Program-made: the position numbers and the translations under genes
Notes under the pieces: model-generated
Database searches by the model: none
What the model was told of the DNA's origin: nothing
The model's input: the letters and a program-made list of their open reading frames with translations, nothing else
In this document: positions 6,001-24,030 of the stretch, piece after piece
Numbering within the stretch: position 1 is the stretch's first letter
Layout: each line of letters starts with the position of its first letter
From: Edaphobacter aggregans
Lineage (GTDB): Bacteria; Acidobacteriota; Terriglobia; Terriglobales; Acidobacteriaceae
Assembly (NCBI RefSeq): GCF_003945235.1
Contig: NZ_RSDW01000001.1
Coordinates: forward strand, 5,400,001-5,432,000
DNA: 32,000 bases
Direction: 5' to 3'

Positions 6001-6276
6001 GATTTTGTACTCATAGCTGGTTGTGTCGCAGCCCGGCAACGTCCAGGAACTGCCAACGGAATTACCTTCATGTCGCTTGAGGATGAAGAGGGGCTCGCCA
6101 ACCTCATCATCATGGTCGATGTTTACGAAAGAAATCGATCAACAGTCATCCGCAGCAAGTTCGTTCTCGCGGGCGGCGTCCTACAGGTTCACGACGACGT
6201 CATCCATGTAAAAGCGGCATGGCTGAGGCCGCTTTCCGATCAGGCGCTGGAGGTGCAATCACATGACTTCCACTAA
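3058..6276 (+). CDS. dnaE2: Error-prone DNA polymerase III alpha-type subunit DnaE2 (ImuC)
   Basis: PHP N-terminus YVELHAASAFSFLEGAS, then GFAGYFLIVWDVV, RGSAANSAVCYALEIT, WPDIDLDLPS, HSGGMVI, FQIESRAQM, LIRPGP, FPESHAASF and a C-terminal OB-like region. I chose the ATG at 3058 (MIDRYVELH) because it overlaps the imuB stop as ATGATTGA; this gives 1072 aa. Confidence 0.95.
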   Translation: MIDRYVELHAASAFSFLEGASEPEKLVERAFELGMPAMALLDRNGVYGSARFHTSAKRNEVRAHIGAEVAVSSLGSRLTPPAWLPYQHITEPARLPLLCETREGYQNLCRLITRFKMRETKKQEGAAIFDDLERHASGLVCLTGGDEGPLAAALMRGGERAGSETVERLVRIFGQNNVYVELQRHCEREEEWRNQAAIRIARSLQLPVLATNGVRYAIRYDKEILDVFTAIRYHTELDRAGRLLSLNNRRHLRTAKEMNALFRDVPNATENTVELSSRLKFELDDLGYEFPSYPVPDGETMDSFLRKRVTEGVQRRYGPKNNRDLYKRAEKQVERELALIEKLGFAGYFLIVWDVVQFCKRNGILIQGRGSAANSAVCYALEITIVDPVGMDLLFERFLSESRNEWPDIDLDLPSEDKREQAIQYVYRRYGELGAAMTANVITYRAKSATREVGKVMGLDPDSLDKMSGGVGNWEWRGPNDTMAHSYKSAGFDLSNSRIAKTLEVAMRIQGLPRHLGQHSGGMVICQGQLDQVVPLERASMPGRTVIQWDKEDCADMHIIKVDLLGLGMMAVLAGCLDLVPEFYGDRIDLAQLPEDDDVYRTIQRADTIGMFQIESRAQMASLPKHRPRSRYCITKQVALIRPGPIHGDMTHPYLERRMGRQPVTYPHPSLKPVLERTLGVPLFQEQLLKMAMIAGNFSGADADELRRAVGMKRSWERMKNLEGKLRAGMTENGIDPKSQDQIVKNISSFALYGFPESHAASFGELAYDSAYIKVKYPEAFLCAILNNQPMGFYSAATLVKDAQRHGVHVRSIDVQTSNWQCTIERGEHEKLSVRIGLGYVKNLTKRSAEALVAVREADGPFRSAEDLTQRVPSLTRHELARLAGVGALNNLEGIEHRRDAIWQVERAGKLEGPLFRQNSDVLRDDDASLPLQQMSTEERLVADYAGTSLTIGKHPMAYRREALRKQNVLSSNDLQNRRHGDFVLIAGCVAARQRPGTANGITFMSLEDEEGLANLIIMVDVYERNRSTVIRSKFVLAGGVLQVHDDVIHVKAAWLRPLSDQALEVQSHDFH

Positions 6277-6556
6277 TCCTGCCGGACACGTCGGCGGGTA
6301 TCGGCGTGAAGTGGACTTTCAGAAATTAGGTCCAGCTTTGATAATCGCGTCTAGTCTGGTGCTCGCCATCCGAACGGCCCGCTGGCCTCCGACGCACAGC
6401 GACGGACTTGCAAATATGGAATGGGAAAAGGAAGTTGAGCACAGCGTTCGCATCGCGAAGATTGTTCTTTCGCATGTAATCGCACGTTGTCCAGAGATGT
6501 TTCAGATGAAGGACGTGCCCTGGTATGTCGCGACGGACGACGAAATACCAAAGTAG
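6263..6556 (+). CDS. Hypothetical small membrane protein (97 aa), translationally coupled to the dnaE2 3' end
   Basis: The ATG at 6263 is preceded by GGAGG (6250-6254) and overlaps the dnaE2 stop (6274-6276) by 14 nt. It has one hydrophobic helix (GPALIIASSLVLAI). I recognise no family. Confidence 0.4.
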   Translation: MTSTNPAGHVGGYRREVDFQKLGPALIIASSLVLAIRTARWPPTHSDGLANMEWEKEVEHSVRIAKIVLSHVIARCPEMFQMKDVPWYVATDDEIPK

Positions 6557-6701: not shown

Positions 6702-9700
6702 GTGATCTCCCGCTATGTACTTTGGAACACCGTTACCCCTTCTACCCCACCGGAACCTGTATCTGTTGCGCTAAAGCAGGCTTTCCAACTTCCAATTGAC
6801 AATCTTGAATCAATCGTTCCGACCTCACTGGCTACGGCAACTCGAATTGCGATTCGAGAATTCCTCGTAACAACCGATGCAGGCCGCGAGTTGGCCGTTT
6901 ATAAGGGAACGCAGCCCCTTTGGCTGGCCCCGTGCGGACAGACATCGATCTCCGATATGGACCTGTCCGTGCGTTCCTTCAATTGTCTGGTTGGCGCGTC
7001 AGTCGCGACTTTGGACGATCTGCTTGCATGGACTCCGAACAAACTCTTGAGCTTGGAACACTTCGGAAGAAAATGTCTCAATGAGATTACCGGGCTTCTA
7101 AGCGACCTTGGATATATTGCAGCTGACGAAGATAGCCCATTCTTCAAAGGTCATCGAACGGGCAACCCATCCGATGACGGCTGCCCGTTCGCCTGCCTGT
7201 TGGCGATTCGGGAGGTGCTTCCCGAAGGGCCACTGCGGACAAAGCTCGAGATGTGCGATTGGACCACGATTGGAGATATCGCGCTTCACCCAATCTCCGA
7301 TGCGTCAATATTCGCAGACCTTACTCAGGAAGAGCAGAATACACTCCAGAACATCTTTCAAAACCTTTCTCTAACCTTGCCTGTTCGGGAATCTGAATGG
7401 GTAACGACTCATGTTTCCGAACTGCGCCGTGTTTTCTCGTCTGAGCTGAGCGCACTTGGGCAGGCTCTCAATGTTGACGACAAACAGCCTACAAGCGACT
7501 CGATCGTTTTCGTTGGAAGCGCCAGCTCGTTGACTGAAGAACTTGATCGACTCATTCCGCCCAAGTACAAGCCGCAAAAACGGTCTATCATCGCTGCGCT
7601 CTTCGGGCTTGATGGCGCTGATCCTCTTACGCTCGAAGAGGTTGCTAAGCGACAGGATCCGCCGATGACGCGGGAGCGAGTCCGCCAGATCGGATCCCCA
7701 TTTCTCAATCGCATCACTTCAGAGGGCAGAAATCTAATCTGGCTTCATAAAGCCCTTGAGACACTGACAGAGGAGATTCCTTGTACACAAGTTCATGCAG
7801 AGATACTTCTCATCGAACGGGGAATCCTCACCTCTCGCCTGTCTCTGACTTCTATTCTCAAACTCTTAAATCGGGCAGGGGTCGAGCATCAGCTAATTCT
7901 GGAATTCGGGCTTCTGCTTTCGAAACAGACCTTGTCTGTCATGAAAGCTGCTGTCTCCAGTGCTCGCAAGAGTTCTTCCCACTGGGGCGTGGCCGACTGG
8001 GAAGAAGTACGGGCTCCGTTGGGCCAATATGGGCATATCATCCGCCCCATTCTTCCCTGGGTTACTTGGCTAGGAGATTCCGAGAGATACTTTGTCTTTC
8101 CAGATGGAGAGAACAGTCTCGCAAACCGGCTGGCTCGGATGTTGCATGTGGCACCCCGGCTTCCGCTTTCGATTGCGTATGAGGCGATCTTTCGGGACAA
8201 TCGGGTGGATTGCTCTCGCCTCCCTAGGGAACATTTCGCTTCGTTCTGCGGACTCTGGCCTTGGTGCAAGCTCGACGGCGACGAGATCGTCTCTATTGGC
8301 ACGCTTCCTCCTGTCGAAGCCTCTGGCGACGATCTTCTGGTCATTCTGATCCGCGAATTCGGCAGACCCGCCACGAGACAGGAGATTTTGCAACGAGCAC
8401 GCATTGAAGGCATTGGCGACGTGACCGTCAACCAGGCCTTGAGTTACAGTAATGTCCTGATGGGGGCTAGTGGTCGGTATTGGGTGGTTGGAGACCCACC
8501 CTTCGTGGAAGAATCCCGCGATTCACAGGCAAAGACCTCCGAGCCTTCTCCTTTAGTGGAGATTACTTCGGGCGATCTTGCTGCTGAGATCATCTCCCAA
8601 GACGGCTCGACAGGACATTCACCCAGTGGAATCTCTAAGCTTGACCCTGCATCCGAGCAGTTCGTAGAGCGCTTGACCCTGGAAGTGCAGCGGCGGGTCG
8701 TCAAGAGACAGCTTGCAACGCCATGGTCAGTAGCAGAACTCGCCCTGGAGGATGCGGAACGATCAGTATTGTTTGAATGGGGTAGCCTCGCGCAATGGGA
8801 TTACCGCAGGGACAATGTTCGATTCAATGACATCGCGAATGAAAGGATTCGCCGGCGCGCCGCGCTCGGGCTTGCGTTCATGGTATTCGCTGCGGAAGCC
8901 GTCCGAAAGCTCGGCGGATCGGGGGTTGTATGGCCCGCGATAAATAAGGCTCTCGGACCGCAGCAACGTCAATTGTTCCTCGCGCAGGAGAGTTCCCCGA
9001 AAACAATGTTGCGAGAAGGAGTGGAGGAGGCTTGCAGGGTCTTCGGGATCAGACACGATTTTGGCGAAGCCGGGCATCAGGTTTGGGTGCGGACGATTGG
9101 CGTTCAGTATGCCATTCCGCTCTCTCAGCTTCCATCCTTACCTCAAATGTTGACCGAATCGTTTGAATTTAATCCGATATCGGTCCAATCACTTCTCAGT
9201 CCGTCGGACAAAATGTACTCGCCTTCGTTCACCGAGGCGTGGAACACTATGAGGCGTCTGCGGCACGGCGACCTTAGCGCGGGCACTGCGGAACAACGGC
9301 TCAAGAAAAATTGCTGGACGATGCATTTCCCTATCGCGGAGCTCCTTGATTGGTGTCTTGCCTCCGCGCCGGCTCGTGCAACCACGAATCAAGGTCTCAC
9401 CCGAGAATCGGAAGGTCTGGCTTATTCCTATTTTGATCAGCCCTCGCTACGATGGGTTGGGGACAACCCGTTTCTTGAATATGCCTTGCACCAGCGGCCG
9501 CCCGCGTGGGTCGAATTAGGCCCGTTGATGTTCATTTCCACTGAACCAGTTAAAAAGGAACAGGTGCTTATCGGCGAGGATGGCTGGCGATTTGCATACG
9601 CTCCATTGTCGATTTCGTTGAGCCACCATCCGTCGACCTATTTCTCCTTCGATCTTCGGTATCGAGGCTCCTCCCAGCTCGCGGAACCAATCGTGCAATC

Positions 9701-11504
9701 GCTGGTACCACCAACCGGGCTCGCCTTCTTCGATGCTTCAGGAGCATTTATCGGCGACAGTGAAACCGCTGTTCCTCTTGACGAATCTGTCACACTACTT
9801 CACGCAGCAGATGTGCAATTCGAAGGAGTTTCGAACCCTCTGCCGTTCCGTTCGATATTTGCCGGATCGTATCGTCTCACTCGATTTCGAGCTGGGGTCT
9901 TGGCTGGGATCACTGTGTTCAATCATTCTGGGGAGCTACTCTGGACCCATGCGGAGGAGGACAGCGAGGCCACGGAAGTTGTCCAAAGTGCCGATCTCGA
10001 CGGGGCGCGATGGGGACATCCTGCGCGCCTTCGGCTACCAACAACAGACTTCGAGCCACATCGGGTTCGGCTCATGAATGGTGAAACCGTTGTATTGCCT
10101 CCGCCAGGAGAAACGACAGTGGTGGAGTTGACGCCCAGCTTGAGTCGAGCGAAATATGCCCGTTTACAGGGATACGCGGGCGTCCACGCGCGATCGGTCA
10201 AGATCCAGTTTCGCCACCTATCGCAGCAGTATGGTGCGGCTTTGGAAGCAAACGGAGCCTGGCAGGCACTACAGGAAAACTCCTCGGTTGAAACGTCCAG
10301 ATTGAGGACGAACCGGTTGCTGGCCCAATCGAAGGACTGGGACTTCGATCCGGAGGAAGCACGGTGGATGGAGGGGAGTCGCGTCATCGCACGACCGCGC
10401 ACCTACGGAACCATCCTGACCGAATGCGAGGGCCTCGGCGCGGGGCTTTGTCTGGCCGGTAAGACCTACAACGAATACCAATCCGGGCTGCGGGCCGCGT
10501 CGGCTGTGATCGACGTAGGCGAATTGAGAAATGTGACTCGACATGATGACAAGAGCTGGAGTGCGCTGCTTCCCTTCGAAGATCCTTTATCCGCAGAGCA
10601 TTGTTTGTGGGCGTGGACTTCAAATTCAAGGCTTCCGCAACCCATCCCAGTTACAGGCCTGGTCAAAAATGGGTCAGAGCTGAAGTGGCGGTTGAGCGTC
10701 ACCGCAGAAGTATTTGGGTGGGCTCTTTCCTTTCGCGGCGCCAGAGTTGGCTCAATGTGTGTGGAGGCGGGATTGTTCCGGTTCGCGGAGCACCTCTCCC
10801 GCGGCGATTGGAGTTCCGACTGGAAGTCCACTTCAGCGTGGATTCGCTGGTGGCATTGCCCTGTATTTCATCCCTCATGGAATGCTGAGATCAAGAAGCT
10901 TTGCATGTTGGCACCCGTGGATACCTGCGCTGCCTGGCTACTGCCCGCGTGTCCGAATTCCTCGATGGTTAACGATGAAGGGCGCGAAGAAGCGTGGGCA
11001 TCTGCCTGCCGCGAGCTGCTTTGGTCATGGCGACCAACCAGCTACGAAGCCAGAGATCTGATGGAGGGCCTGGATATCTGGTCCGGTGACATTGCCAGGG
11101 ATTCGACAGGCGTAAAACTGGAACCGATAGGGAGACTCGCTCGCTGCAATCCCATTCTACTTTCAAGAGCTGCTAGTCTTGCGGCCCCGGAGTTGTACAA
11201 CTACCCGCGTAATCAATTGGTGATTCTTATCCGACTTCTACTCGATGCTATTAACCCGAACGCAGTACGGACCGGATTCGATCTGCGGACACTTTGCGAG
11301 CGTTACGCGCAAGGCGAGAACCGGTTGGACGGCGAATTTATTCTGAGAAGCCTGGTAGTAGACGCCAGGGCAATCCTTGCGGGGCAGGACAGAAAATCGC
11401 ATAACCTCTTGATCGCGTTCCACAACGCAGGATTGCGAGAGATAGTGGCGATTGCACTACTGCTCGATACCATCACGACCTGGCAAGTCGGGGGGAGCGA
11501 CTGA
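6702..11504 (+). CDS. Giant (about 1600 aa) uncharacterised protein with N-terminal RpoA alpha-CTD-like HhH module(s) and a sigma-70 region-4-like HTH. It is the partner of the downstream helicase (DruH-like position).
   Basis: A single uninterrupted 4.8-kb frame. The listed start is GTG at 6702, so the exact start is uncertain. LSVRSFNCLVGASVATLDDLLAWTPNKLLSLEHFGRKCLNEITGLL matches the alpha-CTD pattern (LSVRS.NCL....I.T..DL......LL...NFG.KSL.EI). FGLDGADPLTLEEVAKRQDPPMTRERVRQIGSPFLNRI matches sigma-70 region 4.2. The remaining 1250 aa or so contain no motif I recognise. Confidence 0.85.
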   Translation: MISRYVLWNTVTPSTPPEPVSVALKQAFQLPIDNLESIVPTSLATATRIAIREFLVTTDAGRELAVYKGTQPLWLAPCGQTSISDMDLSVRSFNCLVGASVATLDDLLAWTPNKLLSLEHFGRKCLNEITGLLSDLGYIAADEDSPFFKGHRTGNPSDDGCPFACLLAIREVLPEGPLRTKLEMCDWTTIGDIALHPISDASIFADLTQEEQNTLQNIFQNLSLTLPVRESEWVTTHVSELRRVFSSELSALGQALNVDDKQPTSDSIVFVGSASSLTEELDRLIPPKYKPQKRSIIAALFGLDGADPLTLEEVAKRQDPPMTRERVRQIGSPFLNRITSEGRNLIWLHKALETLTEEIPCTQVHAEILLIERGILTSRLSLTSILKLLNRAGVEHQLILEFGLLLSKQTLSVMKAAVSSARKSSSHWGVADWEEVRAPLGQYGHIIRPILPWVTWLGDSERYFVFPDGENSLANRLARMLHVAPRLPLSIAYEAIFRDNRVDCSRLPREHFASFCGLWPWCKLDGDEIVSIGTLPPVEASGDDLLVILIREFGRPATRQEILQRARIEGIGDVTVNQALSYSNVLMGASGRYWVVGDPPFVEESRDSQAKTSEPSPLVEITSGDLAAEIISQDGSTGHSPSGISKLDPASEQFVERLTLEVQRRVVKRQLATPWSVAELALEDAERSVLFEWGSLAQWDYRRDNVRFNDIANERIRRRAALGLAFMVFAAEAVRKLGGSGVVWPAINKALGPQQRQLFLAQESSPKTMLREGVEEACRVFGIRHDFGEAGHQVWVRTIGVQYAIPLSQLPSLPQMLTESFEFNPISVQSLLSPSDKMYSPSFTEAWNTMRRLRHGDLSAGTAEQRLKKNCWTMHFPIAELLDWCLASAPARATTNQGLTRESEGLAYSYFDQPSLRWVGDNPFLEYALHQRPPAWVELGPLMFISTEPVKKEQVLIGEDGWRFAYAPLSISLSHHPSTYFSFDLRYRGSSQLAEPIVQSLVPPTGLAFFDASGAFIGDSETAVPLDESVTLLHAADVQFEGVSNPLPFRSIFAGSYRLTRFRAGVLAGITVFNHSGELLWTHAEEDSEATEVVQSADLDGARWGHPARLRLPTTDFEPHRVRLMNGETVVLPPPGETTVVELTPSLSRAKYARLQGYAGVHARSVKIQFRHLSQQYGAALEANGAWQALQENSSVETSRLRTNRLLAQSKDWDFDPEEARWMEGSRVIARPRTYGTILTECEGLGAGLCLAGKTYNEYQSGLRAASAVIDVGELRNVTRHDDKSWSALLPFEDPLSAEHCLWAWTSNSRLPQPIPVTGLVKNGSELKWRLSVTAEVFGWALSFRGARVGSMCVEAGLFRFAEHLSRGDWSSDWKSTSAWIRWWHCPVFHPSWNAEIKKLCMLAPVDTCAAWLLPACPNSSMVNDEGREEAWASACRELLWSWRPTSYEARDLMEGLDIWSGDIARDSTGVKLEPIGRLARCNPILLSRAASLAAPELYNYPRNQLVILIRLLLDAINPNAVRTGFDLRTLCERYAQGENRLDGEFILRSLVVDARAILAGQDRKSHNLLIAFHNAGLREIVAIALLLDTITTWQVGGSD

Positions 11505-11505
11505 A

Positions 11506-14500
11506 ATGGAGATCCAAGACACGCTGCATCTCGATGCGGTAACAGCGCAGCATCAACTTCGGGACCGCCTCGTAGGGTTGGCGCGAAGCGAGTCTTTCGT
11601 CCGGTCCCCCGCAGTTTCTGCTGCGTGCGAACGGCTCTGGCTCGCCAATGGCGATGCCGCAGGGCTGCTGAGTGAGATATGGGTTGAATCTCTATTCCCT
11701 GCAAAATCTTCGGGTATCTCGCTGAAGACCACAGCAAACGTCGCGCCGTCGCTGCTTCGCCAGCTCGAGCGTTCGGCGGCTCTCCCTCTGGATCGCAAAC
11801 TCTATGACCATCAGGCCCGGACGATTCAACTCGAATACTCGAGCCGTGGCACAGATGAACGCCCTGCAATGATTGTCTCGGCTGGAACCGGCGCCGGCAA
11901 GACCGAAGCGTTTCTATTGCCGATGCTGAACGATCTCTTTTCAACGCCCCGGAAGGCAGGTGAGACCGGCGTCCGAGCGATCCTGCTCTACCCCTTGAAT
12001 GCGTTAGTTAACGATCAGATTGAGCGGCTCCACGGATGGCTCAAGGGGCAAGGCGAGATTACGGTCATTCACTATACGAGCGAGACCCCGCAGGATGAAC
12101 CAGATCCCAAGGCGGTATTCGATCCCAGCCGGCTGCGAACACGACTTGAGGCGCAAAGAAATCCTCCGGATATCTTGATCACAAACTACTCGATGCTTGA
12201 GTACCTCCTCTGTAGGCCTCAAGACAATCCACTCTTCGGAAAGGGTCTGCGGACGCTTGTCCTCGACGAGGCACACCTTTATAGCGGAAGTCTCGCAGCT
12301 GAAATTTCTCTTCTGTTGCGACGTGTCATGTTACGTTGCGGCGTCCCAAGCGAGCGAGTACTCCAAATTGCAACCTCCGCAACGCTTGGAGGCAGCTCTA
12401 GCGAGATCAAAGACTTTGCCGCCGGCATCTTTTCGAAGTCTCTCTCTCTGGTCCACCATATACCCGGCAAGACCTCCCGTCGGGAGCTGCCGAAGCAAGC
12501 GAGTCCCTCAGCTCAGTGCAGGCCGGAGGATATGCTGAAGCTCACCGAGGCGATTAAGTTGCGCCCCCTGGTAGATGCGAAGGGGCTGCGCACCGATCCG
12601 GAGCTATGCGATGAACTCCGCGCGCTCTCTCCACTATTCGTTGATTCTCGGGCGCATTTCGATTCGGACGAGAGAAGGCCTGCGAGCCTCCTGCACGCAC
12701 TGATCGGCCAAATGCCTCAGCTTCACACCTTAGACAACCTGTTCTGGAATCACCACGAAACTGGATCCGTCATGAAATTGCGCGAAGTCGCCCAAGAGAT
12801 TTGGCAGGCAAACTCTCAGCTCGCGATGCGAGCCACTGTGGCGCTACTCCAGTTGGGATCTCAGGCTCGATTGAATCTCCAGGAATTACCTCTGTTACCT
12901 CACAAGCTACACCTTCTCGCCCGCGCACCCGGGCCGATCAGCGTTTGCGTGAATCCCGACTGCAACGCGGCGCCTGAGGATCGAATCCCCGGTGGAGGTG
13001 CCGTCTCGCTAGACTCGGGGGGGGCCTGCAAGCATTGCGGGTCTGCAACCTTATCCTTGGCACGGTGTAATAGATGTGGCTTGGAGGCGGTCGCTGGAAG
13101 CCGGAGATCCGACAATACGCTACACCCTCGAGGCCAAACATTTGGCCGAGCTAGAAGAAATGCAAGCGAGATGTTTTTTCAGCTCGCTCCCGATGGAGAC
13201 GTCTTTTACAACATCGCGACACGTGATTGTGAGGAGGGCGGCCAGACGGTTCGCATGGCCGAAATTGTGCTTTGCCCGCATTGCGGGGCGGAGGATGATC
13301 CATTTCGTTCCCTAAGCTTGCTGGATGCCCTCGTTCTCCCTGTGGTAGCAGAGACTTTACACGCTTCCCTCCCAGTCATATCGGATCACGAACGCGCCTG
13401 GCTTCCGGCCGGCGGCAGGCGATTGCTTGCATTTAGCGACAGCCGTAACAGGGCGGCGCGGCTAGGCCCACTTTTAACGCGAAGCCATGAAATCCAGATG
13501 GGGCGCTCGTTGATCGATCAGGTGCTAGGCACAGCAACGCCGGACGCAGGTGTTCGGAGGCTTCGTCAGCGGAATATTCAACGAACATTGGAGGATCTCG
13601 CAAGCTCCGATCTAAGCGCCTCGTTGAGGGCAGAACTCGAATCCGATCTGAGGTCCCAACGAACTGAACTCGAAGCAATCGATTTGGGCATAACCATTGA
13701 AGAGTTGGGCAACCGTCTCAAGCACGCACCCGGACTGGCTCAGTTCTACTGCCGTCCTAGCGCAGTCACGCAACGGGCGGCCGAATGGACTCAAACTACA
13801 TGGGAGCGCAATAGAACGGAGATGATGGCGTGGGCGCCGACGATCCTCTCGAGAGAACTCGCCGTACCGGCATGGCAACGGTTGTCGCTTGAGTCGGCAG
13901 GTCTGGTTGAGATCGTATATCCGGGAATAAGCGATTGGAGGCCGCCGGTCGGCCTGGGCTTTACGCCCGCGATAGCAGACGGTCTCAAAGAACAATGGCC
14001 CGTCCTCATTGCAGCCTTACTGGACATCGCGAGAAGGGACCGTGCCGTGACTCTCGGCTCACGCGATCGAGATCATGTTGAATACTCGACGCCTCTTGGG
14101 AAGTGGATGAGCTTACGAACACGTTCCGACACATCTTTGATCTCCTTTGCAGGATCGGCGCAAGGCAGTCGATCGCGGAGGCCTGCGCTCGTCGTGAAGC
14201 TGCTAGAGCGCTTAGGTTGCGTCTCTCGAATTGACGAGCTTACCTCCCAGGTGTTGGAGGCTGTCTTTCAGCAGTTGATCGATGCTGGCCAACAAGGCCA
14301 GTTGCCTTGGATTGAAGTTGGTGATCGGCAAAGCAGGGACGGGATCTCACGAGCCTTCAGACTGAAATTTGATGGACTTCGTGTTCGGCGCCCGTTCAAT
14401 CTCTATCGCTGTGAAGTCACGGGAGAACTTTGGCCCAGGTCTCTCTTGGGGCTCTCGACGACATCTACTGATGGGCGATCTGACCTGAAACCGGTCACTC

Positions 14501-16620
14501 ACGCCGAAGCCGACCAAGATCCACGTTTTGCACGGACGCGTCAGGAAATCCGCTCATCTGAGATATTCCGGATCGGCATTTGGGCTGACGAGCATTCGGC
14601 ACAGCTTGATCCCAAGGAGAATCGCAGACTTCAGGATCTCTTCTCTAAAGGGGCGCGCAATATCCTCTCGGCTACGACAACGCTTGAAGTTGGTATTGAT
14701 ATTGGCGGGCTCTCTGCCGTTCTGCTGGGCAATGTGCCTCCTTCTCGGGCTAACTATCAACAACGCGGTGGTAGAGCTGGCCGACGTGCAGATGGGTCGT
14801 CACTAGTCTGCACATTCGCACCAAACCGCCCCTTCGACCAGGCAGTATTCAATCACTTCAGCCATTTCTTCAGCAAACAGTTGCGTAAGCCCACAGTTCG
14901 CCTTGGGCGTGAGCGCTTCGGGCGTAAGCATGCCCACTCGTTTCTCCTGGGAGAATTCTTTCGGCGCATATATCCAGCAGGAACGACCGTTACCACAATG
15001 AACGCCTTTAATCAGATGGGTTGGCTCTGCGGAGAACAACAAGTTCCAAGGCAGGTCGCCGACCAACCACGAGTCGAGCAACTCATGTCCCCAAACGCAC
15101 TCATTCTGGATGAATCGGCTTCCTGGTGGGTTAGCGGTGATGCCCCGTTTCTACAGTTCGATCACTTCCTCGGTTTTCTTCTTACCGGAGAGAATTCGGT
15201 CAAAGTTCAGCTCGAAGCCTTGCTGCAGGACACGCCGCTCAGCGATACCGTCAACCGCGTGATCTCAGACGCTCAGTCTTCGTTCCGATCCGCGTGTGTG
15301 GCCTGGTCGAAGGACTATCGGTCGTTGGTGAGTGCGTGGCAGTCGGGAATTGCGTCAGGTGTTCCGAATTCAACGCTGAACGCGATCCATTATCAAGCGA
15401 AGACCCTCTGGCAAACGACGACGATCTCGTCGCTAGCTGAGAGGCGGTTCCTCCCACGGTATGGATTTCCTCTGGACGTTCAAGTTTTGACCGCCTTGAC
15501 GGAAGGTCGCGAGGAACCCGTCCGTTTTCAGCGCGGTTCGCTTCTCGCGCTGAGCGAGTACGTCCCCGGGTCAGTCCTGCTCGGAGGAGGGCGCAGTTAC
15601 ACATCAAGAGGCATTCTGAACTTTTGGTCCGCGAGCGGGGACAAGAGTTTTGGCCTCAGGAAATTTCAGTATGCGTGTCAGTCCGGACATCGATGGACTG
15701 AGCTCCAGCCCCTACAAGGGGACCGGTGCCCAACTTGCAATGACTTTCTTCAGAGTTCTGGACGAGAACTGCTGATTCCCACATTCGGCTATTCCACGGC
15801 TCAATGGGACCCGCCGACCTGGGAAGGAGCGCAGGAGCGAATAGGTGAAACGCAAGTACTGGCGTCCGGTTTTCTGACAGCTGGAGCTTCGCCGATCATC
15901 ACGGATTTTGCAGGAATTGTCGGCATGTCTGCCGCCCCACACGAAAACGCGGAGTTGCTTGCAACCAACTCAGGTGAATTTGACGCCGGCTTTGCCATCT
16001 GCACTAAGTGTGGCTTTACCGACAGTATGAGATCAGGGGCGGACGACCTTCCCCGGAGCGGGGAGGGCGTCGATTTCAACGAACACCTACCGCTGCGCTC
16101 AAGACTTAACAGCAAGAAGTGCTGGAATAAAGGAGAAGAACCTGTACTTCGACATCAACATTTAGCAGCACAACACAACACGGACCTGTTGGAGCTTGAT
16201 CTCGAAGATGTACCCGGCCTCCGTACAAGGGTTATGGCAATGACCTTCGCTCACGCTGTTCACTTAGCTGCGGCAGAATTGCTCGAGGTGGACTCGCGCG
16301 AAATCAGTCTCTCAGTCCATGAGATCGATGACCAAACGTCGTGGAAGATCCAGCTCTACGACTCCGAGGCTGGTGGCTCGGGGCACATCCTTGAACTGGC
16401 TGAGAGGCATCATGAATTGCCTGCAGTGCTTAAGCTCGTACTTTTTCGAAATGCTCAACACAATGCAATATGTACTAGTGCGTGCATCCAATGTCTGCTA
16501 ACGCAAGGGAGTCAAGATGCATACGAGGCCGGGCTTCTTGATCGGCGCGCTCTTCTCGATCTGTTGATAACGACTGAATCCACAGATTGCGTAACCGAAT
16601 CGAGTTCCACTGCGTTTTAA
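11506..16620 (+). CDS. Giant DEAH-box SF2 helicase with Zn-ribbon insertions and a C-terminal DUF1998/MZB domain (DruE/DrmAB/MrfA-like)
   Basis: The ATG at 11506 is 1 nt after the upstream stop (TGA 11502-11504) and is preceded by a GGGGGGAG Shine-Dalgarno sequence; the listed 11452 is a TTG. Helicase motifs: Q-like LYDHQ, motif I SAGTGAGKTEA (from 11881), motif II LVLDEAH (DEAH 12265-12276), motif III ATSATL, motif IV-like LLAFSDSRNRAARL, EHSAQL, motif V ILSATTTLEVGIDIGGL, motif VI QQRGGRAGRR. Cys clusters: CVNPDCN..CKHCG..CNRCG and CPHCG. The C-terminus carries RFLPRYGFPLDV...ALSEYVPGS, CPTCN, CTKCG, LYDSEAGGSGH and CTSACIQCL, typical of DUF1998. Confidence 0.9.
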   Translation: MEIQDTLHLDAVTAQHQLRDRLVGLARSESFVRSPAVSAACERLWLANGDAAGLLSEIWVESLFPAKSSGISLKTTANVAPSLLRQLERSAALPLDRKLYDHQARTIQLEYSSRGTDERPAMIVSAGTGAGKTEAFLLPMLNDLFSTPRKAGETGVRAILLYPLNALVNDQIERLHGWLKGQGEITVIHYTSETPQDEPDPKAVFDPSRLRTRLEAQRNPPDILITNYSMLEYLLCRPQDNPLFGKGLRTLVLDEAHLYSGSLAAEISLLLRRVMLRCGVPSERVLQIATSATLGGSSSEIKDFAAGIFSKSLSLVHHIPGKTSRRELPKQASPSAQCRPEDMLKLTEAIKLRPLVDAKGLRTDPELCDELRALSPLFVDSRAHFDSDERRPASLLHALIGQMPQLHTLDNLFWNHHETGSVMKLREVAQEIWQANSQLAMRATVALLQLGSQARLNLQELPLLPHKLHLLARAPGPISVCVNPDCNAAPEDRIPGGGAVSLDSGGACKHCGSATLSLARCNRCGLEAVAGSRRSDNTLHPRGQTFGRARRNASEMFFQLAPDGDVFYNIATRDCEEGGQTVRMAEIVLCPHCGAEDDPFRSLSLLDALVLPVVAETLHASLPVISDHERAWLPAGGRRLLAFSDSRNRAARLGPLLTRSHEIQMGRSLIDQVLGTATPDAGVRRLRQRNIQRTLEDLASSDLSASLRAELESDLRSQRTELEAIDLGITIEELGNRLKHAPGLAQFYCRPSAVTQRAAEWTQTTWERNRTEMMAWAPTILSRELAVPAWQRLSLESAGLVEIVYPGISDWRPPVGLGFTPAIADGLKEQWPVLIAALLDIARRDRAVTLGSRDRDHVEYSTPLGKWMSLRTRSDTSLISFAGSAQGSRSRRPALVVKLLERLGCVSRIDELTSQVLEAVFQQLIDAGQQGQLPWIEVGDRQSRDGISRAFRLKFDGLRVRRPFNLYRCEVTGELWPRSLLGLSTTSTDGRSDLKPVTHAEADQDPRFARTRQEIRSSEIFRIGIWADEHSAQLDPKENRRLQDLFSKGARNILSATTTLEVGIDIGGLSAVLLGNVPPSRANYQQRGGRAGRRADGSSLVCTFAPNRPFDQAVFNHFSHFFSKQLRKPTVRLGRERFGRKHAHSFLLGEFFRRIYPAGTTVTTMNAFNQMGWLCGEQQVPRQVADQPRVEQLMSPNALILDESASWWVSGDAPFLQFDHFLGFLLTGENSVKVQLEALLQDTPLSDTVNRVISDAQSSFRSACVAWSKDYRSLVSAWQSGIASGVPNSTLNAIHYQAKTLWQTTTISSLAERRFLPRYGFPLDVQVLTALTEGREEPVRFQRGSLLALSEYVPGSVLLGGGRSYTSRGILNFWSASGDKSFGLRKFQYACQSGHRWTELQPLQGDRCPTCNDFLQSSGRELLIPTFGYSTAQWDPPTWEGAQERIGETQVLASGFLTAGASPIITDFAGIVGMSAAPHENAELLATNSGEFDAGFAICTKCGFTDSMRSGADDLPRSGEGVDFNEHLPLRSRLNSKKCWNKGEEPVLRHQHLAAQHNTDLLELDLEDVPGLRTRVMAMTFAHAVHLAAAELLEVDSREISLSVHEIDDQTSWKIQLYDSEAGGSGHILELAERHHELPAVLKLVLFRNAQHNAICTSACIQCLLTQGSQDAYEAGLLDRRALLDLLITTESTDCVTESSSTAF

Positions 16621-16648
16621 GCACGGGTCCGCACGAACGCGCATGCCG

Positions 16649-16664
16649 CCAGAATCGATTCTGG
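16649..16664. promoter_or_regulatory. Perfect 16-bp palindrome CCAGAATCGATTCTGG between the giant helicase gene and the RecD-like gene
   Basis: Read directly at 16649-16664, 29 nt after the helicase stop. No T-tract follows, so it is not a canonical intrinsic terminator. It could be a protein-binding site or a short hairpin. Confidence 0.25.
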
Positions 16665-16769
16665 ATTGGAGCTAAATCGCTGATGCACTCATCTGGGAGG
16701 CAACACCGACCGACTTCACATTTGTGATCATGTTGATCTGTAAGGTTGTCGTTTACAGTAATCCCAGCG

Positions 16770-18275
16770 ATGAAAGATCCAGACTCGAATGGCAGCCGCC
16801 TGACCAATCTCGCGAGACGCTGGCGCAAGCGACTCACCCAGGCGCAACCGGAAGCAGATTCTCAAGAGACGTTCTTCTCGCCACCACCACGGGCCGAGGG
16901 GACTAGCGTCGTGGTAAGAGCAATCGTACCGATGCCAGCTGTACCTACCCCGATAGAAGAATCCTCAACCGACCCTGAGCTTACGACGGACCAGGCAGAG
17001 GCGCTCCGTAAGATTGAAGCCGCCTACGAGCCAGGCGAGTTCTACCTACTTACGGGGCACGCTGGCTCAGGCAAGACGTATCTCATGCAGCGGCTAACGA
17101 AGAACATGCTGGCAAAGAAGCGCCGGATCGTTCTCACTGCACCCACGCACAAGGCGGTCGCGGTCCTCGCGCGCAAACTGGCCGAGGCCAACATCAAGGA
17201 CGTACCATGCCGCACGATCCATAGCATCCTCAGCCTAACGCCGAAACCTCGGACGGATCGGCTCGTTTTCGAAAGAGAGCGCGACGCAGAACCCGTCACG
17301 GCCGATGTCGTAGTTGTCGACGAATGCAGTATGGTTTCGGAGGATTTATACCGCCATATAAAGCGGCACCTGCCCAATGCCTTCGTCCTATTTCTTGGGG
17401 ATCCCGCTCAGCTGCCTCCAGTAGGAGAAGTAGAAAGCCAGACGTTCGCAACAAAGAATCGGTCGCACCTCACGACGATTGTGCGGCAAGCGGCTGGGAA
17501 CCCGATCCTGGCTGCCGCAGGCATCATCCGCGCCAGTCAGGGAGGACCGGCGGATATGTCGTGGTGTGCGGCGGCTGCGCTTGAAACCAAGCAGGGCATT
17601 TTCCTGCCAGCCGATGCAGCGCACCGGTGGATGAAGAAGGCCTTCACGTCGCCGGAGTTCGACGCCGACCCGGATAGCTTCCGCTACCTCGCATGGACAA
17701 ATTCGCGTGTTCATCAGGTGAACGAGTTAATCCGGGCTTGGCGGTACGGCGCAAATATTCCGACGCCGTTCATGCCTGGCGAAAGTGCGCTGTTCCGCGC
17801 TCCCGTTGTAATCGACGAGTCCATCATCTTCGCCAACAATCAGGAAGCCAGAGTTATAGCGATTGAACGATCGACGTTCACTCACGAGATTCAGGAGGCT
17901 GATGGCGTTCCTCAATGGACAGCCTCGATCCCATCCTGGAAGATCACACTTCGCGATGTCGAAGGCATCGACAAAGCGGTTCATATGCACGCTGATGAGC
18001 GCGAGTTTCAGAGGGTAATTGAGCGGATAAAGGATGAAGCGGCTGAGTCACGTCTACGATGGAAGCACCTTCATGGGTTCCAGCAGAGTCTGGCACAGCT
18101 GCAATCTGTCTATTGTCTGACGGTTCATCGGAGTCAGGGCTCAACATTCCAGACTGCGTTTCTCGACCTACCTGACATACGCCGGCGCGAAAAAACCAAC
18201 CTATTGGAAGCGCAACAAATGCTATATGTGGCTGTGACCCGGCCCTCGCAGCGCCTGATAGTGGTTGGGGAGTGA
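16770..18275 (+). CDS. SF1B RecD/Dda/Pif1-like DNA helicase (AAA_30 plus UvrD_C-type)
   Basis: Motifs: Walker A TGHAGSGKTY, TAPTHKAV, Walker B VVVDECSMV, LFLGDPAQLPPV, TIVRQ, LTVHRSQGSTF, LYVAVTRPSQRLIVVG. I prefer the ATG at 16770 (MKDPDSNG...) to the listed TTG at 16746. The N-terminal 90 aa or so are low-complexity. Confidence 0.85.
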   Translation: MKDPDSNGSRLTNLARRWRKRLTQAQPEADSQETFFSPPPRAEGTSVVVRAIVPMPAVPTPIEESSTDPELTTDQAEALRKIEAAYEPGEFYLLTGHAGSGKTYLMQRLTKNMLAKKRRIVLTAPTHKAVAVLARKLAEANIKDVPCRTIHSILSLTPKPRTDRLVFERERDAEPVTADVVVVDECSMVSEDLYRHIKRHLPNAFVLFLGDPAQLPPVGEVESQTFATKNRSHLTTIVRQAAGNPILAAAGIIRASQGGPADMSWCAAAALETKQGIFLPADAAHRWMKKAFTSPEFDADPDSFRYLAWTNSRVHQVNELIRAWRYGANIPTPFMPGESALFRAPVVIDESIIFANNQEARVIAIERSTFTHEIQEADGVPQWTASIPSWKITLRDVEGIDKAVHMHADEREFQRVIERIKDEAAESRLRWKHLHGFQQSLAQLQSVYCLTVHRSQGSTFQTAFLDLPDIRRREKTNLLEAQQMLYVAVTRPSQRLIVVGE

Positions 18276-18307: not shown

Positions 18308-19813
18308 CTACATGTAATACCTGAATGATGACAGCGGAGTGGTCGAATCATCCTCTCCATACTCAGCCATGATGCCCCCAATCTTCCTTGAAAAGGCGAG
18401 CGTCACCGGTTGTCCTCCTGACATACTGGCGGTATTCCAGTTCATTCGCGCCAATCCGAGAATGTCTTTCGCTACCTGTTCGAGGTCAATTATCCGGTCG
18501 CTTCGTAACTCCACGGGCGCAGGTATATGTGGGCCAGGATAGGTGCCGATTGACGGCATATATCCCGTTGTAAAGAGGAAGGATTTCGATCCGTTCACCA
18601 GACAAAGAGTCCCGCGGTTTGGGGGGTATGAACCAAATCGCAGCAGCCGAAATTGCGTTGGCATGATGTTTATGAGCTCCACAACAGGAACCGAAGTTAG
18701 TGCATGACGAAAGCCTTCACTCTCGGCTTCACTAAAGGCCGACGTCTTGTGAAAAACCATTCGTACAGGATCACCACCCGTTCGATCACGATATTCCTCC
18801 AAGACGTTTGTAGCCAAAGCAGCCGCTTGGATGTCAGTCAAATGTACGTTACGCCCTTGGTCTTCGCTCCAGTCTACGTTTCCTCCACGCAGTGCGAACC
18901 CTTCCCCTTTGCTCGAAAAGGCCTGCGCGATGCTCGATTGAACGAGATGTCGTTGAGTTGTACGTAAGTGATGAAAACTAACTCCTACGAAACATGTCTC
19001 TGGGCCATCGAGATTGAGACGCCACGGGATGCCGCCAGCCTTGTAATAAAGGGCTACAGTGCTGTTCCATGCTCTGATATTAGGCGCCTGGTTAGATTCC
19101 TGGTCCTCTACCATGTGTCGCGTAGCGATCTGAACTGGCATTCGAAACCGCATTGCGCGAGCTTTGAGAGCCCTTCTGAAGTCGCGCTGAAGAAGATCCT
19201 CAGGCTGCTCCTCAACAGGCTGGCTATCAAAAGAGAGGGATAGTTGGGGATCACTCTGCTTCTTCTTGAGAGCAGCTACCGCTGCCTTGTCTTCCTTGGT
19301 CAGAGTCTCATTCAGCGACCAGCAACGAGCGATCAACTCGTCTGGCAGACAACACAAAACTACGTCCGGCTTCTTTGTCTCCAGAGAAGAAAGTTGTCGG
19401 ACCCCTTCTGCATACAGCTCCAAAACCGCTTCGAATCGGGTCTTCGGATCACTCAGGTTGAGACAGTTCGCAAGTTCGCCCGATTCACCACCCAGACTTT
19501 TGACGAATCTCGTATTCTGTATCAGCTTGGCGCGGAAGATGTCTTGGAATCCCGGGAAGGCTGGGTATTGAGTCATGTCAGATGAGGCTTCGGGTAGGAT
19601 TTGTTGGCAACGTTCAAGCCATCTCTGAGTGGCATCAATCATCATGTCCGGGCCTACTAGTCCAACTGTGATGGTTTCATTTCGCCCGGCACCGAAGCGC
19701 AGGTCGAACGGGCCGGCCTCCCGAAGGCCCTGTCGCATATCAGAAAATTCGCCGGGGCCGCCAAATTCAAGAAGCGGCTCCGGTAACTGACGAAGATCAA
19801 TTCGAATCGGCAT
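18308..19813 (-). CDS. Short prokaryotic Argonaute (MID plus PIWI only), predicted catalytically inactive
   Basis: End-to-end pattern match to short pAgos as I recall them (e.g. the SPARTA Ago): N-terminus LPEPLLEFGG...GLREAGPFDL, ALKARAMRFRMPVQIA (MID), ALYYKAGGIPWRL, and C-terminus GQPVTLAFSRKIGGIMAEY...SSFRYYM. The PIWI catalytic positions read GVSFHH and FHKTS instead of G.DV.H and HRDG. The ATG at 19813 (MPIRIDL) overlaps the upstream gene's stop by 17 nt; the listed 19834 is a TTG. Confidence 0.9.
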   Translation of the reverse strand: MPIRIDLRQLPEPLLEFGGPGEFSDMRQGLREAGPFDLRFGAGRNETITVGLVGPDMMIDATQRWLERCQQILPEASSDMTQYPAFPGFQDIFRAKLIQNTRFVKSLGGESGELANCLNLSDPKTRFEAVLELYAEGVRQLSSLETKKPDVVLCCLPDELIARCWSLNETLTKEDKAAVAALKKKQSDPQLSLSFDSQPVEEQPEDLLQRDFRRALKARAMRFRMPVQIATRHMVEDQESNQAPNIRAWNSTVALYYKAGGIPWRLNLDGPETCFVGVSFHHLRTTQRHLVQSSIAQAFSSKGEGFALRGGNVDWSEDQGRNVHLTDIQAAALATNVLEEYRDRTGGDPVRMVFHKTSAFSEAESEGFRHALTSVPVVELINIMPTQFRLLRFGSYPPNRGTLCLVNGSKSFLFTTGYMPSIGTYPGPHIPAPVELRSDRIIDLEQVAKDILGLARMNWNTASMSGGQPVTLAFSRKIGGIMAEYGEDDSTTPLSSFRYYM

Positions 19814-23873: not shown

Positions 23874-24030
23874 GCGCTTGATTGTAAGCGAAGAGGCGGC
23901 GAAAACTGCAACAGGATCGGACACATAAAATGCACTGGGTAGCAAAAACTTGATCACCCATGTGCGTGCGCCCGTCTCCCGTGCAAGGTGGCCTCGTTTG
24001 CCAAGAGCTGTACCCTGCCTTGGAAAGGTG

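What the first reader, a model, noticed from the sequence alone, without database searches (positions are those of the whole stretch)
6702..18275. Candidate novel defence-type system: a 1600-aa HTH-bearing giant protein, a 1704-aa DEAH helicase with Zn-ribbons and DUF1998, and possibly a RecD-like helicase
Two very large genes are translationally coupled: stop TGA at 11502-11504, ATG at 11506, and a GGGGGGAG Shine-Dalgarno sequence inside the upstream gene.

A helicase with DUF1998 is the core of known anti-phage systems (DISARM DrmA/DrmB, Druantia DruE) and of MrfA repair helicases. This window contains no methyltransferase, PLD nuclease or SNF2 gene, which argues against DISARM. At 1704 aa the protein is far beyond MrfA size.

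The closest known architecture is Druantia type III: one large protein of unknown function (DruH) followed by a DruE helicase of roughly this size or larger. However, the partner here carries transcription-factor-like DNA-binding modules, and 1250 aa or so of it have no motif I recognise. An SF1B helicase follows in the same orientation.

The cluster lies next to a pAgo system, so it sits in a defence-island context.
Basis: partly seen in the sequence, partly recalled or inferred. Interest (0 to 1): 0.85.

Follow-up and report, generated by a model that had tools for sequence, protein, structure and literature searches.

The report
Druantia-III-like pair with RNA-polymerase-like partner
Two coupled giant genes form a variant of the known Druantia type III anti-phage system: an ordinary DruE helicase, plus an unusual partner whose front end copies the promoter-reading parts of RNA polymerase.

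Summary
ORFs 6702-11504 (1600 aa) and 11506-16620 (1704 aa) are intact and translationally coupled (TGA-A-ATG, GGGGGGAG 8 nt upstream).

The helicase is a clear DruE. Its best PADLOC hit is DruE3 (674 bits). It has GAGKT, DEAH, six CxxC motifs and MZB, but no PLD, so it resembles the compact type III-B DruE.

The 1600-aa protein hits no DruH model, although E. coli DruH hits 12 of them. It has two parts:
- **N-terminal part (about 600 aa):** an RNA polymerase alpha-CTD, sigma-70 region 4 with an intact -35 recognition helix, and tandem winged helices.
- **C-terminal body (about 950 aa):** this belongs to a family of 739 clusters, mostly stand-alone proteins of about 950 aa. In all five extra loci examined, the family member sits directly upstream of a DruE-like helicase.

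The predicted fold of the body (helical, then Ig/Fn3 array, then helical) and one weak colinear motif resemble DruH. Homology is not proven.

The gene pair is conserved in 14 of 14 Acidobacteriota loci. The RecD-like gene is conserved in none, so it is not part of the system.

Verdict: a new variant of a known kind (Druantia III-like), not a categorically new system. The imuABC/dinB neighbourhood recurs and deserves a note.

The parts
6702..11504 (+). Partner protein in the DruH position, 1600 aa (whole gene)
   Evidence: Intact ORF. 100% identical to an Edaphobacter aggregans protein that NCBI annotates as 'RNA polymerase alpha subunit'. Found immediately upstream of a DruE-like helicase in 14/14 related loci. 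No PADLOC DruH hit even at E<=10, whether scanned whole or in segments.
6939..7112 (+). RNA polymerase alpha C-terminal-domain-like module (aa 80-137)
   Evidence: Pfam RNA_pol_A_CTD E 1.6e-15. PDB alpha subunits match at E down to 1.8e-8. Foldseek probability 1.0, TM 0.83, rmsd 0.7 A. R91/N94/G122/K124 align with E. coli R265/N268/G296/K298 and are invariant in the family.
7527..7736 (+). Sigma-70 region 4-like HTH (about aa 276-345)
   Evidence: NCBIfam MzaA 3e-8, RpoS/RpoD 1e-5 to 1e-6. Pfam Sigma70_r4 in homologues P0032, P0036 and P0396. BLASTP to E. coli RpoD 554-604, E 1e-5: TRERVRQI aligns with sigma70 T583-I590. R324, E325, R326, R328 and Q329 are invariant. Foldseek hits to sigma4/beta-flap chimeras.
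7749..8501 (+). Tandem winged-helix region (about aa 350-600)
   Evidence: AF2 model ma3012b0408b6 has pLDDT 80-94 here. The top Foldseek hit is the SelB C-terminal four-winged-helix fragment 1lva (probability 1.0, 285 columns); Dcc1 and COR winged-helix arrays also match.
8634..11501 (+). C-terminal body of about 950 aa (aa 645-1600): a DruH-analogous core shared with stand-alone DruE partners
   Evidence: The A2 profile finds 739 representative clusters at E<=1e-3. Of the 146 listed hits outside the first search, 82 are 900-1060 aa, most matched over nearly their full length. AF2 model: helical 1-270, beta-sandwich array 270-710, helical 710-956, mean pLDDT 68.7. The top but non-significant Foldseek hits are Fn3 and cytokine-receptor arrays.
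11490..11508 (+). Translational coupling junction (SD GGGGGGAG, stop TGA, start ATG)
   Evidence: Read directly from the sequence. A gap of 1-6 nt or an overlap between the two genes is also seen in L001, L002, L004, L005, L006, L017, L019 and L022. The gap is 13 nt in L023 and 4 nt in L024.
11506..16620 (+). DruE-class YprA/MrfA-family SF2 helicase, 1704 aa, without PLD nuclease domains
   Evidence: PADLOC DruE3 PDLC00037 674 bits, E 1.7e-202; the match stops at profile position 1674 of 2055. Pfam DEAD, Helicase_C and MZB. PDB 9tu7, a 2108-aa DEAD/DEAH helicase deposited in the same run of entries as DruH 9tud and taken here to be E. coli DruE, matches at E 1.4e-83. GAGKT, DEAH, 6 CxxC, no PLD motif.

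Best explanation
Genes 6702-11504 and 11506-16620 form a two-gene anti-phage module of the Druantia type III kind. It is closest to the compact, PLD-less 'III-B' form.

**Gene 2 (shown).** It is a DruE-class helicase.

**Gene 1 (shown).** It occupies the DruH position and is translationally coupled to DruE. It is a fusion of two parts:
- a lineage-specific N-terminal array (in Acidobacteriota) of RNA-polymerase promoter-recognition modules: an alpha-CTD with the DNA-binding '265 determinant' conserved, sigma-70 region 4 with the -35 recognition helix conserved, and SelB-like tandem winged helices;
- a body of about 950 aa from a widespread, so far unannotated family that always precedes DruE-like helicases.

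**Mechanism (inferred by analogy with the 2026 Druantia III studies).** DruE loads on exposed single-stranded DNA, 3' ends or forks of invading DNA and unwinds 3'->5'. The partner acts as a DNA-binding sensor or scaffold. Here its extra N-terminal modules would place it on duplex, promoter-like (A/T-tract plus TTGACA-like) DNA, or on RNA polymerase itself, so the helicase is directed to actively transcribed or promoter-rich foreign DNA.

**Excluded.** The RecD-like gene and the pAgo/SIR2-APAZ pair are separate neighbours in a defence hotspot that lies between imuA-imuB-dnaE2 and dinB.
For: - **Helicase identity:** PADLOC DruE3 at 674 bits, against NCBIfam's closest YprA/MrfA-like helicase model (TIGR03817) at 98 bits. 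PDB 9tu7 (taken to be E. coli DruE) matches at E 1.4e-83.
- **Pair conservation:** The partner is followed by the helicase, adjacent and co-directional, in 14/14 loci. Giant identity runs 26-62% and DruE identity 44-77%.
- **Body family:** 739 clusters. Relatives of 901-2171 aa are followed directly by 1707-1806-aa DEAD/Helicase_C/MZB helicases in L017, L019, L022, L023 and L024. All four partner helicases scanned (L001, L017, L019, L022) best-hit DruE3 at 650-720 bits and lack the profile's C-terminal part.
- **Contexts are defence or mobile-element rich:** AbiEii, toxin-antitoxin genes and SIR2 (L001); type I R-M and a STAND NTPase (L002); CBASS (L003); integrases, a methylase and T4SS genes (L006); an integrase (L022); reverse transcriptases, a transposase and a recombinase (L024); short pAgo/SIR2-APAZ in the window.
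- **N-terminal modules:**
- **Experimental defence by two-gene DruH-DruE systems:** E. coli (10.64898/2026.05.13.724758; 10.64898/2026.05.12.722862) and M. smegmatis, whose DruE is 1667 aa (PMC13316683).
- **Published subtype:** A III-B subtype with a compact DruE lacking PLD domains is described in PMC12458937 and 10.64898/2026.05.13.724758.
Against: - **No DruH model match:** Neither the partner nor nine of its relatives hit any of the PADLOC DruH models that E. coli YjiT/DruH hits (12 models, up to 1828 bits).
- **No new-Pfam DruH families:** Families PF27205 and PF27201 are precomputed on canonical DruH but not on this family.
- **Profile comparisons are weak:** hhalign gives only 3-26% probability.
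- **PDB sequence search is empty:** The family profile finds nothing at E<=10, although DruH 9tud is in that file.
- **No experiment on this subfamily:** Nothing has been tested for it.
- **Repair genes recur nearby:** DNA-damage-tolerance genes lie near four of the fifteen loci, which leaves a repair role open.
- **Function of the RNAP-like modules is inferred:** It rests on residue conservation only.
Confidence: 0.75

Rival explanations
1. The pair is a DNA-damage or transcription-coupled repair module that works with the neighbouring imuA-imuB-dnaE2 mutasome, dinB and SRAP. A YprA/MrfA-family helicase would be brought to stalled RNA polymerase or damaged promoters by a partner carrying RNAP-related modules, much as Mfd uses its RID domain.
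For: - imuA-imuB-dnaE2 lies directly upstream in the window and in L001 (62-nt gap, same strand), and downstream in L002.
- dinB is present in the window and L001. SRAP is present in the window, L002 and L003. Ku is in L001 and an ATP-dependent ligase in L003.
- The helicase family includes the repair helicase MrfA (PDB 6znp, E 1.5e-15).
- A Thioploca relative of the partner carries a CarD/TRCF RNAP-interacting domain (E 2e-11).
Against: - The helicase scores about seven times higher with DruE models than with the closest YprA/MrfA-like helicase model.
- 11 of 15 loci have no repair gene within reach, and nearly all have defence or mobile-element genes.
- The family is very patchy: 8 loci among 185,579 species genomes by the pattern scan, which has limited sensitivity. 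That fits accessory defence cargo rather than core repair.
- The window and L001 share imuABC ... dinB flanks but differ in the cargo between them, which is how a defence hotspot behaves.
Confidence: 0.1
2. It is a three-gene system in which the RecD-like SF1B helicase (16746-18275) is an obligatory third component.
For: - Same orientation, with only about 125 nt after DruE and no terminator-like site between them.
- It matches PADLOC candidate-system helicases PDC-S68 and PDC-M16A and type IV RecD.
Against: - tblastn finds no homologue of it in any of the 14 related loci, although DruE is found in all of them.
- The called genes downstream of DruE differ in every locus.
Confidence: 0.05
3. 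The two-gene module is a new defence system only analogous to Druantia III. The partner family is unrelated to DruH and supplies a different activity, such as RNAP-directed sensing, so the mechanism differs from DruH-DruE.
For: - No HMM or profile evidence of DruH homology.
- RNAP-related modules recur in different forms in the family: alpha-CTD plus sigma4; 6-7 alpha-CTD-like repeats in P0083; CarD_TRCF_RID in P0131. No such domain was seen on the E. coli YjiT/DruH-like proteins.
Against: - Gene order, coupling and size class are the same as for DruH.
- The predicted helical/Ig-Fn3/helical architecture matches the published DruH description, whose Fn3-like D6-D8 and Ig-like D4 are reported in 10.64898/2026.05.13.724758.
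- A colinear N-terminal motif (hydrophobic run, A/S-E-x-x-R-R, then W) sits at the same distance from the start in both canonical DruH subfamilies. hhalign scores 32.6, against 16-17 for reversed controls and at most 29.7 in 30 block shuffles.
Confidence: 0.1

Closest known systems
Druantia type III-B (compact DruH-DruE; Bell et al. 2025 PMC12458937; M. smegmatis MSMEG_1253/1254, PMC13316683)
   Same: - Two co-directional, coupled genes.
- A large partner of unknown catalytic function upstream of a DruE of about 1700 aa with DEAD/Helicase_C/MZB, zinc modules and no PLD nuclease.
- A defence-island or mobile-element context.
   Different: - The partner is 1600 aa, against about 1100-1130 aa.
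- It hits none of the DruH HMMs.
- It carries about 600 aa of alpha-CTD, sigma region 4 and winged-helix modules. The E. coli studies report no annotated domains in DruH (10.64898/2026.05.13.724758), and none of these modules was seen on the YjiT-like proteins.
Druantia type III-A (E. coli DruH/YjiT-DruE; PDB 9tud, and 9tu7 taken to be its DruE)
   Same: - DruE core: E 1.4e-83 to 9tu7.
- A partner with a predicted Ig/Fn3-like domain array between helical regions.
- Gene order.
   Different: - E. coli DruE has about 400 extra C-terminal residues with two PLD-like domains.
- E. coli DruH is detectably unrelated at the sequence level, apart from a weak N-terminal motif.
MzaA of the MZA (MzaABCDE) defence system
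   Same: A sigma-70-family region 4 HTH embedded in a defence-associated protein (NCBIfam NF041931, E 3e-8, aa 276-345).
   Different: The match covers only about 70 residues, scoring 33 bits against a cut-off of 800. The rest of the protein and the system composition are unrelated.
MrfA/YprA-MrfB repair helicase system
   Same: Same helicase superfamily branch, with an MZB/DUF1998 domain.
   Different: MrfA is about 750 aa, is paired with an exonuclease, and lacks the DruE-specific insertions. The match here is far weaker (98 bits to the closest NCBIfam YprA/MrfA-like helicase model, TIGR03817).

Membership tests
Druantia type III (DruH + DruE) | A DruE-class YprA-like helicase (DEAD/DExH core, Helicase_C, MZB/DUF1998, zinc modules) | tested here: met
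   PADLOC DruE3 PDLC00037 674 bits, E 1.7e-202; other DruE1-4 models 274-503 bits. Pfam DEAD, Helicase_C and MZB. GAGKT, DEAH and six CxxC. PDB 9tu7 at E 1.4e-83.
Druantia type III (DruH + DruE) | A partner protein that belongs to the DruH family by sequence profile | tested here: not met
   No DruH hit at E<=10 for the whole protein or for five overlapping 400-aa segments. Nine relatives also give none. Positive control: E. coli YjiT hits 12 DruH3 models. No PF27205/PF27201 is on record for this family, unlike canonical DruH.
Druantia type III (DruH + DruE) | Remote homology or a shared fold between the partner's body and DruH | tested here: inconclusive
   hhalign on the N-terminal domain: probability 26%, E 7e-4, score 32.6, against 16-17 reversed and at most 29.7 in 30 block shuffles. 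The same motif register appears with 9tud. Full-length probability is 3%. The AF2 architecture resembles the published DruH description, but 9tud is not in the Foldseek library.
Druantia type III (DruH + DruE) | A two-gene operon with the partner immediately upstream of DruE, conserved across genomes | tested here: met
   14/14 loci of the giant subfamily and 5/5 more distant relatives.
Druantia type III (DruH + DruE) | Protection against phage that requires both genes | not testable with these tools
   Needs cloning and phage challenge.
Druantia subtype III-A | DruE carries two C-terminal PLD-like nuclease domains | tested here: not met
   No PLDc Pfam hit and no HxKxxxxD motif. The match to the 2055-position DruE3 profile ends at 1674.
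DISARM | DrmA + DrmB (split helicase/DUF1998) with DrmC (PLD) and/or an SNF2 helicase and a methyltransferase | tested here: not met
   DrmA models reach only 61-63 bits, against 674 for DruE. No PLD, SNF2 or methyltransferase was found among the window's large ORFs.
RNA polymerase alpha subunit (the NCBI name of this protein) | An alpha N-terminal dimerisation/assembly domain plus a CTD, about 330 aa in total | tested here: not met
   Only the CTD matches: rpoA models give 45 bits against cut-offs of 228-434 and cover model positions 231-293 only. The protein is 1600 aa.

The most novel reading that the evidence does not exclude
The alpha-CTD and sigma-region-4 copies (and the CarD/TRCF RNAP-interacting domain in the Thioploca relative) may be integrated decoys or docking modules. 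Through them the Druantia partner would either be attacked by phage proteins that hijack host RNA polymerase (anti-sigma factors of the AsiA type, alpha-CTD-modifying enzymes), or ride on RNA polymerase itself. Take-over of transcription, rather than a DNA feature alone, would then be the signal that licenses the DruE helicase. That would give the enigmatic DruH-position proteins a defined sensing logic.
Probability: 0.12. Interest if true: 0.85.

Novelty: new variant of a known kind. Interest (0 to 1): 0.55.

Why it matters
Druantia III is under intense study; five mechanistic papers or preprints appeared in 2026. The role of its second protein, DruH, is still unclear, with proposals ranging from ssDNA binder to scaffold to sensor.

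This locus shows that DruE-class helicases also pair with a large partner family (739 clusters at 50% identity) that PADLOC 2.0 and Pfam do not recognise. Current defence finders would therefore call such loci incomplete.

In one lineage that partner has acquired the exact promoter-reading modules of RNA polymerase, with their DNA-contact residues conserved. In another lineage it has acquired an RNAP-interacting domain. This gives a concrete, testable lead: Druantia partners may act at promoters or on the transcription machinery.

It also supplies new HMM seeds for annotation.

Tried and rejected
- **Sequence-level DruH membership:** PADLOC at E<=10 on the whole protein and on segments, on nine relatives, and a PDB sequence search with the family profile. 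All were negative.
- **Structural match to DruH:** Foldseek of the body model against the PDB gave no significant hit. The DruH entry 9tud post-dates the structure library.
- **LexA box GTTC-N7-GTTC** (the motif I recall for Acidobacterium): matches are no more frequent than chance, and none lies upstream of imuA, dinB or the giant gene. SOS control could therefore not be tested.
- **Plasmid, phage and viral carriage:** tblastn of the body and of P0067 against plasmids, and an IMG/VR scan, found nothing.
- **Pfam on the 200-340-aa and 1200-aa N-terminal extensions of other relatives:** no domains, except alpha-CTD-like repeats in P0083.
- **Bell et al. supplementary table:** it is truncated in the held copy, so I could not see how they classified the Edaphobacter aggregans helicase.
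- **RecD-like gene as a component:** rejected on 0/14 conservation.
- **A wasted call:** one repeat PDB search added nothing new.


Full report
**Origin and layout.** The window comes from Edaphobacter aggregans (Acidobacteriota): the 1600-aa product is 100% identical to an NCBI protein of that species, which NCBI names 'RNA polymerase alpha subunit'. Gene order:

| Coordinates | Strand | Gene |
|---|---|---|
| 520-1554 | + | imuA-like |
| 1518-3065 | + | imuB-like (IMS) |
| 3019-6276 | + | dnaE2 |
| 6263-6556 | + | unassigned 97-aa ORF |
| 6702-11504 | + | the 1600-aa gene |
| 11506-16620 | + | the 1704-aa helicase |
| 16746-18275 | + | RecD-like SF1B helicase |
| 18308-19834 | - | short pAgo |
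| 19797-22574 | - | SIR2-APAZ |
| 22761-23957 | - | dinB |
| 24291-24920 | - | SRAP |

Ordinary genes follow: a histidine phosphatase and a HAMP histidine kinase.

**Observation.**
- The junction reads GGGGGGAG (11490-11497), TGA (11502-11504), A, ATG (11506-11508).
- The helicase has GAGKT at aa 129, DEAH at aa 254 and six CxxC motifs. Pfam finds DEAD, Helicase_C and MZB/DUF1998, and there is no PLD motif.

**The helicase is DruE.**
- PADLOC's best model is DruE3 PDLC00037 (674 bits, E 1.7e-202). Other DruE1-4 models score 274-503 bits, DpdJ 116 and DrmA 63.
- NCBIfam's closest YprA/MrfA-like helicase model (TIGR03817) reaches only 98 bits.
- The closest solved structure is 9tu7, a 2108-aa DEAD/DEAH helicase deposited alongside DruH 9tud and taken here to be E. 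coli DruE (E 1.4e-83).
- The match to the 2055-position DruE3 profile ends at position 1674. Together with the missing PLD motifs, this corresponds to the compact 'III-B' DruE, which lacks the PLD domains of III-A. That form is described by Bell et al. (PMC12458937) and Himpich et al. (10.64898/2026.05.13.724758).

**The partner is not a recognisable DruH.**
- It hits no DruH model, either whole or in five overlapping segments, even at E<=10.
- As a positive control I fetched full-length E. coli YjiT (1096 aa), which lies upstream of a frameshifted DEAD/DEAH helicase gene of about 2110 codons next to mcrBC. YjiT hits 12 DruH3 models at up to 1828 bits and the PDB entry named DruH, 9tud.

**Anatomy of the partner.** An alignment of 30 homologues shows a variable linker at about aa 600-650 that separates two parts.

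*N-terminal part* (AF2 model pLDDT 78.8):
- *alpha-CTD (aa 80-137):* Pfam E 1.6e-15; Foldseek probability 1.0, TM 0.83, rmsd 0.7 A.
- *Sigma-70 region 4 (about aa 276-345):*.
- *Tandem winged helices (about aa 350-600):* these resemble the SelB C-terminal fragment.

BLASTP against E. coli RpoA and RpoD aligns the following residues:
- R91, N94, G122 and K124 with alpha R265, N268, G296 and K298. From established knowledge, these form the '265 determinant' that contacts UP-element DNA.
- T323-R-E-R-V-R-Q-I330 with sigma70 T583-I590, the -35 recognition helix.

All of these residues are invariant across the family, so DNA binding is probably retained. That is an inference.

*C-terminal body* (aa 645-1600):
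- A seven-sequence profile (A2) searched against 1.84 billion representatives found 739 clusters at E<=1e-3 and 261 at E<=1e-30.
- Of the 146 listed hits outside the first search, 82 are stand-alone proteins of 900-1060 aa, most of them matched over nearly their full length.
- 16 have short N-terminal extensions without Pfam domains.
- 16 are proteins of 1300-1800 aa, most of which (12 of 16) carry both alpha-CTD and sigma4, as here.
- 7 exceed 1800 aa. One of these has six or seven alpha-CTD-like repeats.

**Synteny.**
- Every locus of the giant subfamily has the DruE-like helicase immediately downstream. This holds for six metagenomic contigs and eight Acidobacteriota genomes, and was confirmed by tblastn. 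Giant identity is 26-62% and DruE identity 44-77%.
- More distant relatives show the same pair: a 974-aa protein followed by an 1806-aa helicase (L017); 2171 aa followed by 1775 aa (L019); 944 aa followed by 1716 aa in Thioploca ingrica (L022); 968 aa followed by 1773 aa (L023); and 901 aa followed by 1707 aa (L024).
- The four partner helicases I scanned (L001, L017, L019, L022) all best-hit DruE3 at 648-721 bits and lack the profile's C-terminal part.
- The RecD-like gene, the pAgo and the SIR2-APAZ have no counterpart in any of the 14 loci.

**Is the body a remote DruH?**
- *Against:* HMMs find nothing. Full-length hhalign gives 3% probability.
- *For:* Restricted to the N-terminal helical domain, hhalign gives 26% probability, E 7e-4 and score 32.6. 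Reversed controls score 16-17, and the maximum over 30 block shuffles is 29.7. The alignment covers body residues 13-108 and DruH residues 12-95. It centres on a hydrophobic run followed by (A/S)-E-x-x-R-R and a tryptophan. The independent DruH subfamily of PDB 9tud aligns at the same motif and register.
- *Fold:* The AF2 model of the body (pLDDT 68.7) is helical (1-270), then a beta-sandwich array (270-710), then helical (710-956). Its top Foldseek hits are not significant, but they are fibronectin-III and cytokine-receptor arrays. The cryo-EM DruH is described as having Ig-like and Fn3-like central domains (10.64898/2026.05.13.724758).

I rate remote homology as likely but unproven. Strict membership by profile is not met.

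**Context and the rival reading.**
- Neighbours in other loci are mostly defence or mobile-element genes: AbiEii, toxin-antitoxin pairs, SIR2, type I R-M, a STAND NTPase, CBASS, integrases, reverse transcriptases and a T4SS.
- DNA-damage-tolerance genes recur all the same. imuA-imuB-dnaE2 lies directly upstream in the window and in L001 (62-nt gap), and downstream in L002. dinB is in the window and L001. SRAP is in the window, L002 and L003. Ku and a ligase also appear.
- The window and L001 share the imuABC and dinB flanks but carry different cargo between them. I read this as a defence hotspot beside the mutasome cassette.
- A repair role, or SOS-linked expression, is not excluded. The Thioploca partner's CarD/TRCF RNAP-interacting domain (E 2e-11) keeps a transcription link alive.
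- A scan for the GTTC-N7-GTTC LexA box was uninformative.

**Mechanism.**
- *Shown:* a DruE-class helicase; a conserved coupled pair; the modular composition of the partner; conserved DNA-contact residues.
- *Inferred from published Druantia III work:* DruE engages exposed ssDNA, 3' ends or forks and unwinds 3'->5'. The partner binds DNA or acts as sensor or scaffold, and both genes are needed (10.64898/2026.05.13.724758; 10.64898/2026.05.12.722862; PMC13192584; PMC13316683).
- *Speculative:* the alpha-CTD, sigma4 and winged-helix array targets the partner to promoter-like duplex DNA or to RNA polymerase, or serves as a decoy for phage factors that hijack RNAP.

**Novelty.** No paper in the held library links Druantia with alpha-CTD or sigma modules. 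PADLOC 2.0 and Pfam do not cover the partner family. Even so, the system's core and architecture are those of Druantia III. I classify it as a new variant of a known kind, of moderate interest.

Noticed in passing
window 520-6276 (+); also L001 4472-9939 and L002 21627-24839: An imuA-imuB-dnaE2 mutasome cassette lies directly upstream of the Druantia-like pair. The same adjacency recurs in two distant homologous loci, where the giant is 30-39% identical. With dinB on the far side in both the window and L001, the interval looks like a defence hotspot flanked by damage-tolerance genes. In L001 the gap from dnaE2 to the giant gene is only 62 nt, so SOS-linked co-transcription is conceivable.
   Followed up: partly
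window 18308-22574 (-): A complete short-pAgo system: a 508-aa short pAgo (PADLOC pAgo_I, 487 bits) overlapping a 925-aa SIR2-APAZ partner (Aga_SIR2-PNTD1-PNTD2, 1200 bits). The partner also matches Pfam HATPase_c_4 at aa 491-570. The system is convergent with the Druantia-like operon.
   Followed up: no
window 16746-18275 (+): An orphan RecD2-like SF1B helicase (509 aa) sits between DruE and the pAgo. It matches the PADLOC candidate systems PDC-S68 and PDC-M16A and type IV RecD, but is absent from all 14 related loci. Its partner system, if any, is unknown.
   Followed up: partly
window 6263-6556 (+): A 97-aa ORF whose ATG overlaps the dnaE2 stop by 14 nt. It has no Pfam, NCBIfam or tblastn match in the related loci. 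A promoter-like site (TTCAGA-16-GATAAT) lies inside it at 6318-6345.
   Followed up: partly
L022 10001-12835 (Thioploca ingrica AP014633.1): A 944-aa relative of the partner's body carries a CarD/TRCF RNAP-interacting domain (aa 819-869, E 2e-11) in place of part of the C-terminal helical region. A 1716-aa DruE-like helicase follows it. This is a second, independent link between this partner family and RNA polymerase.
   Followed up: partly
L019 3992-10507 (GCA_028293605.1): A 2171-aa relative has six or seven tandem alpha-CTD-like helix-hairpin-helix repeats (aa 365-1014) ahead of the body. A 1775-aa DruE-like helicase follows it.
   Followed up: no
L004 1-1059 (-): A second DruE-like helicase gene of 1726 aa (29.6% identical to the window DruE over the 321 aligned N-terminal residues) lies about 9 kb upstream of the giant-DruE pair on the opposite strand. 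That genome therefore carries two Druantia-like helicases in one island.
   Followed up: no
window 6702-11504: The public annotation of this protein as 'RNA polymerase alpha subunit' is a misnomer. It is driven by the 58-residue alpha-CTD module; no alpha N-terminal domain is present.
   Followed up: yes
L007/L008 (E. coli K-12 4572414-4576855; ECONIH1): E. coli K-12 yjiT and the yjiV pseudogene next to mcrBC are remnants of a Druantia III-A system. Full-length YjiT (1096 aa) hits the DruH3 models end to end. It shares only its N-terminal 250 aa with the DruH of PDB 9tud, which shows how fast DruH diverges.
   Followed up: partly
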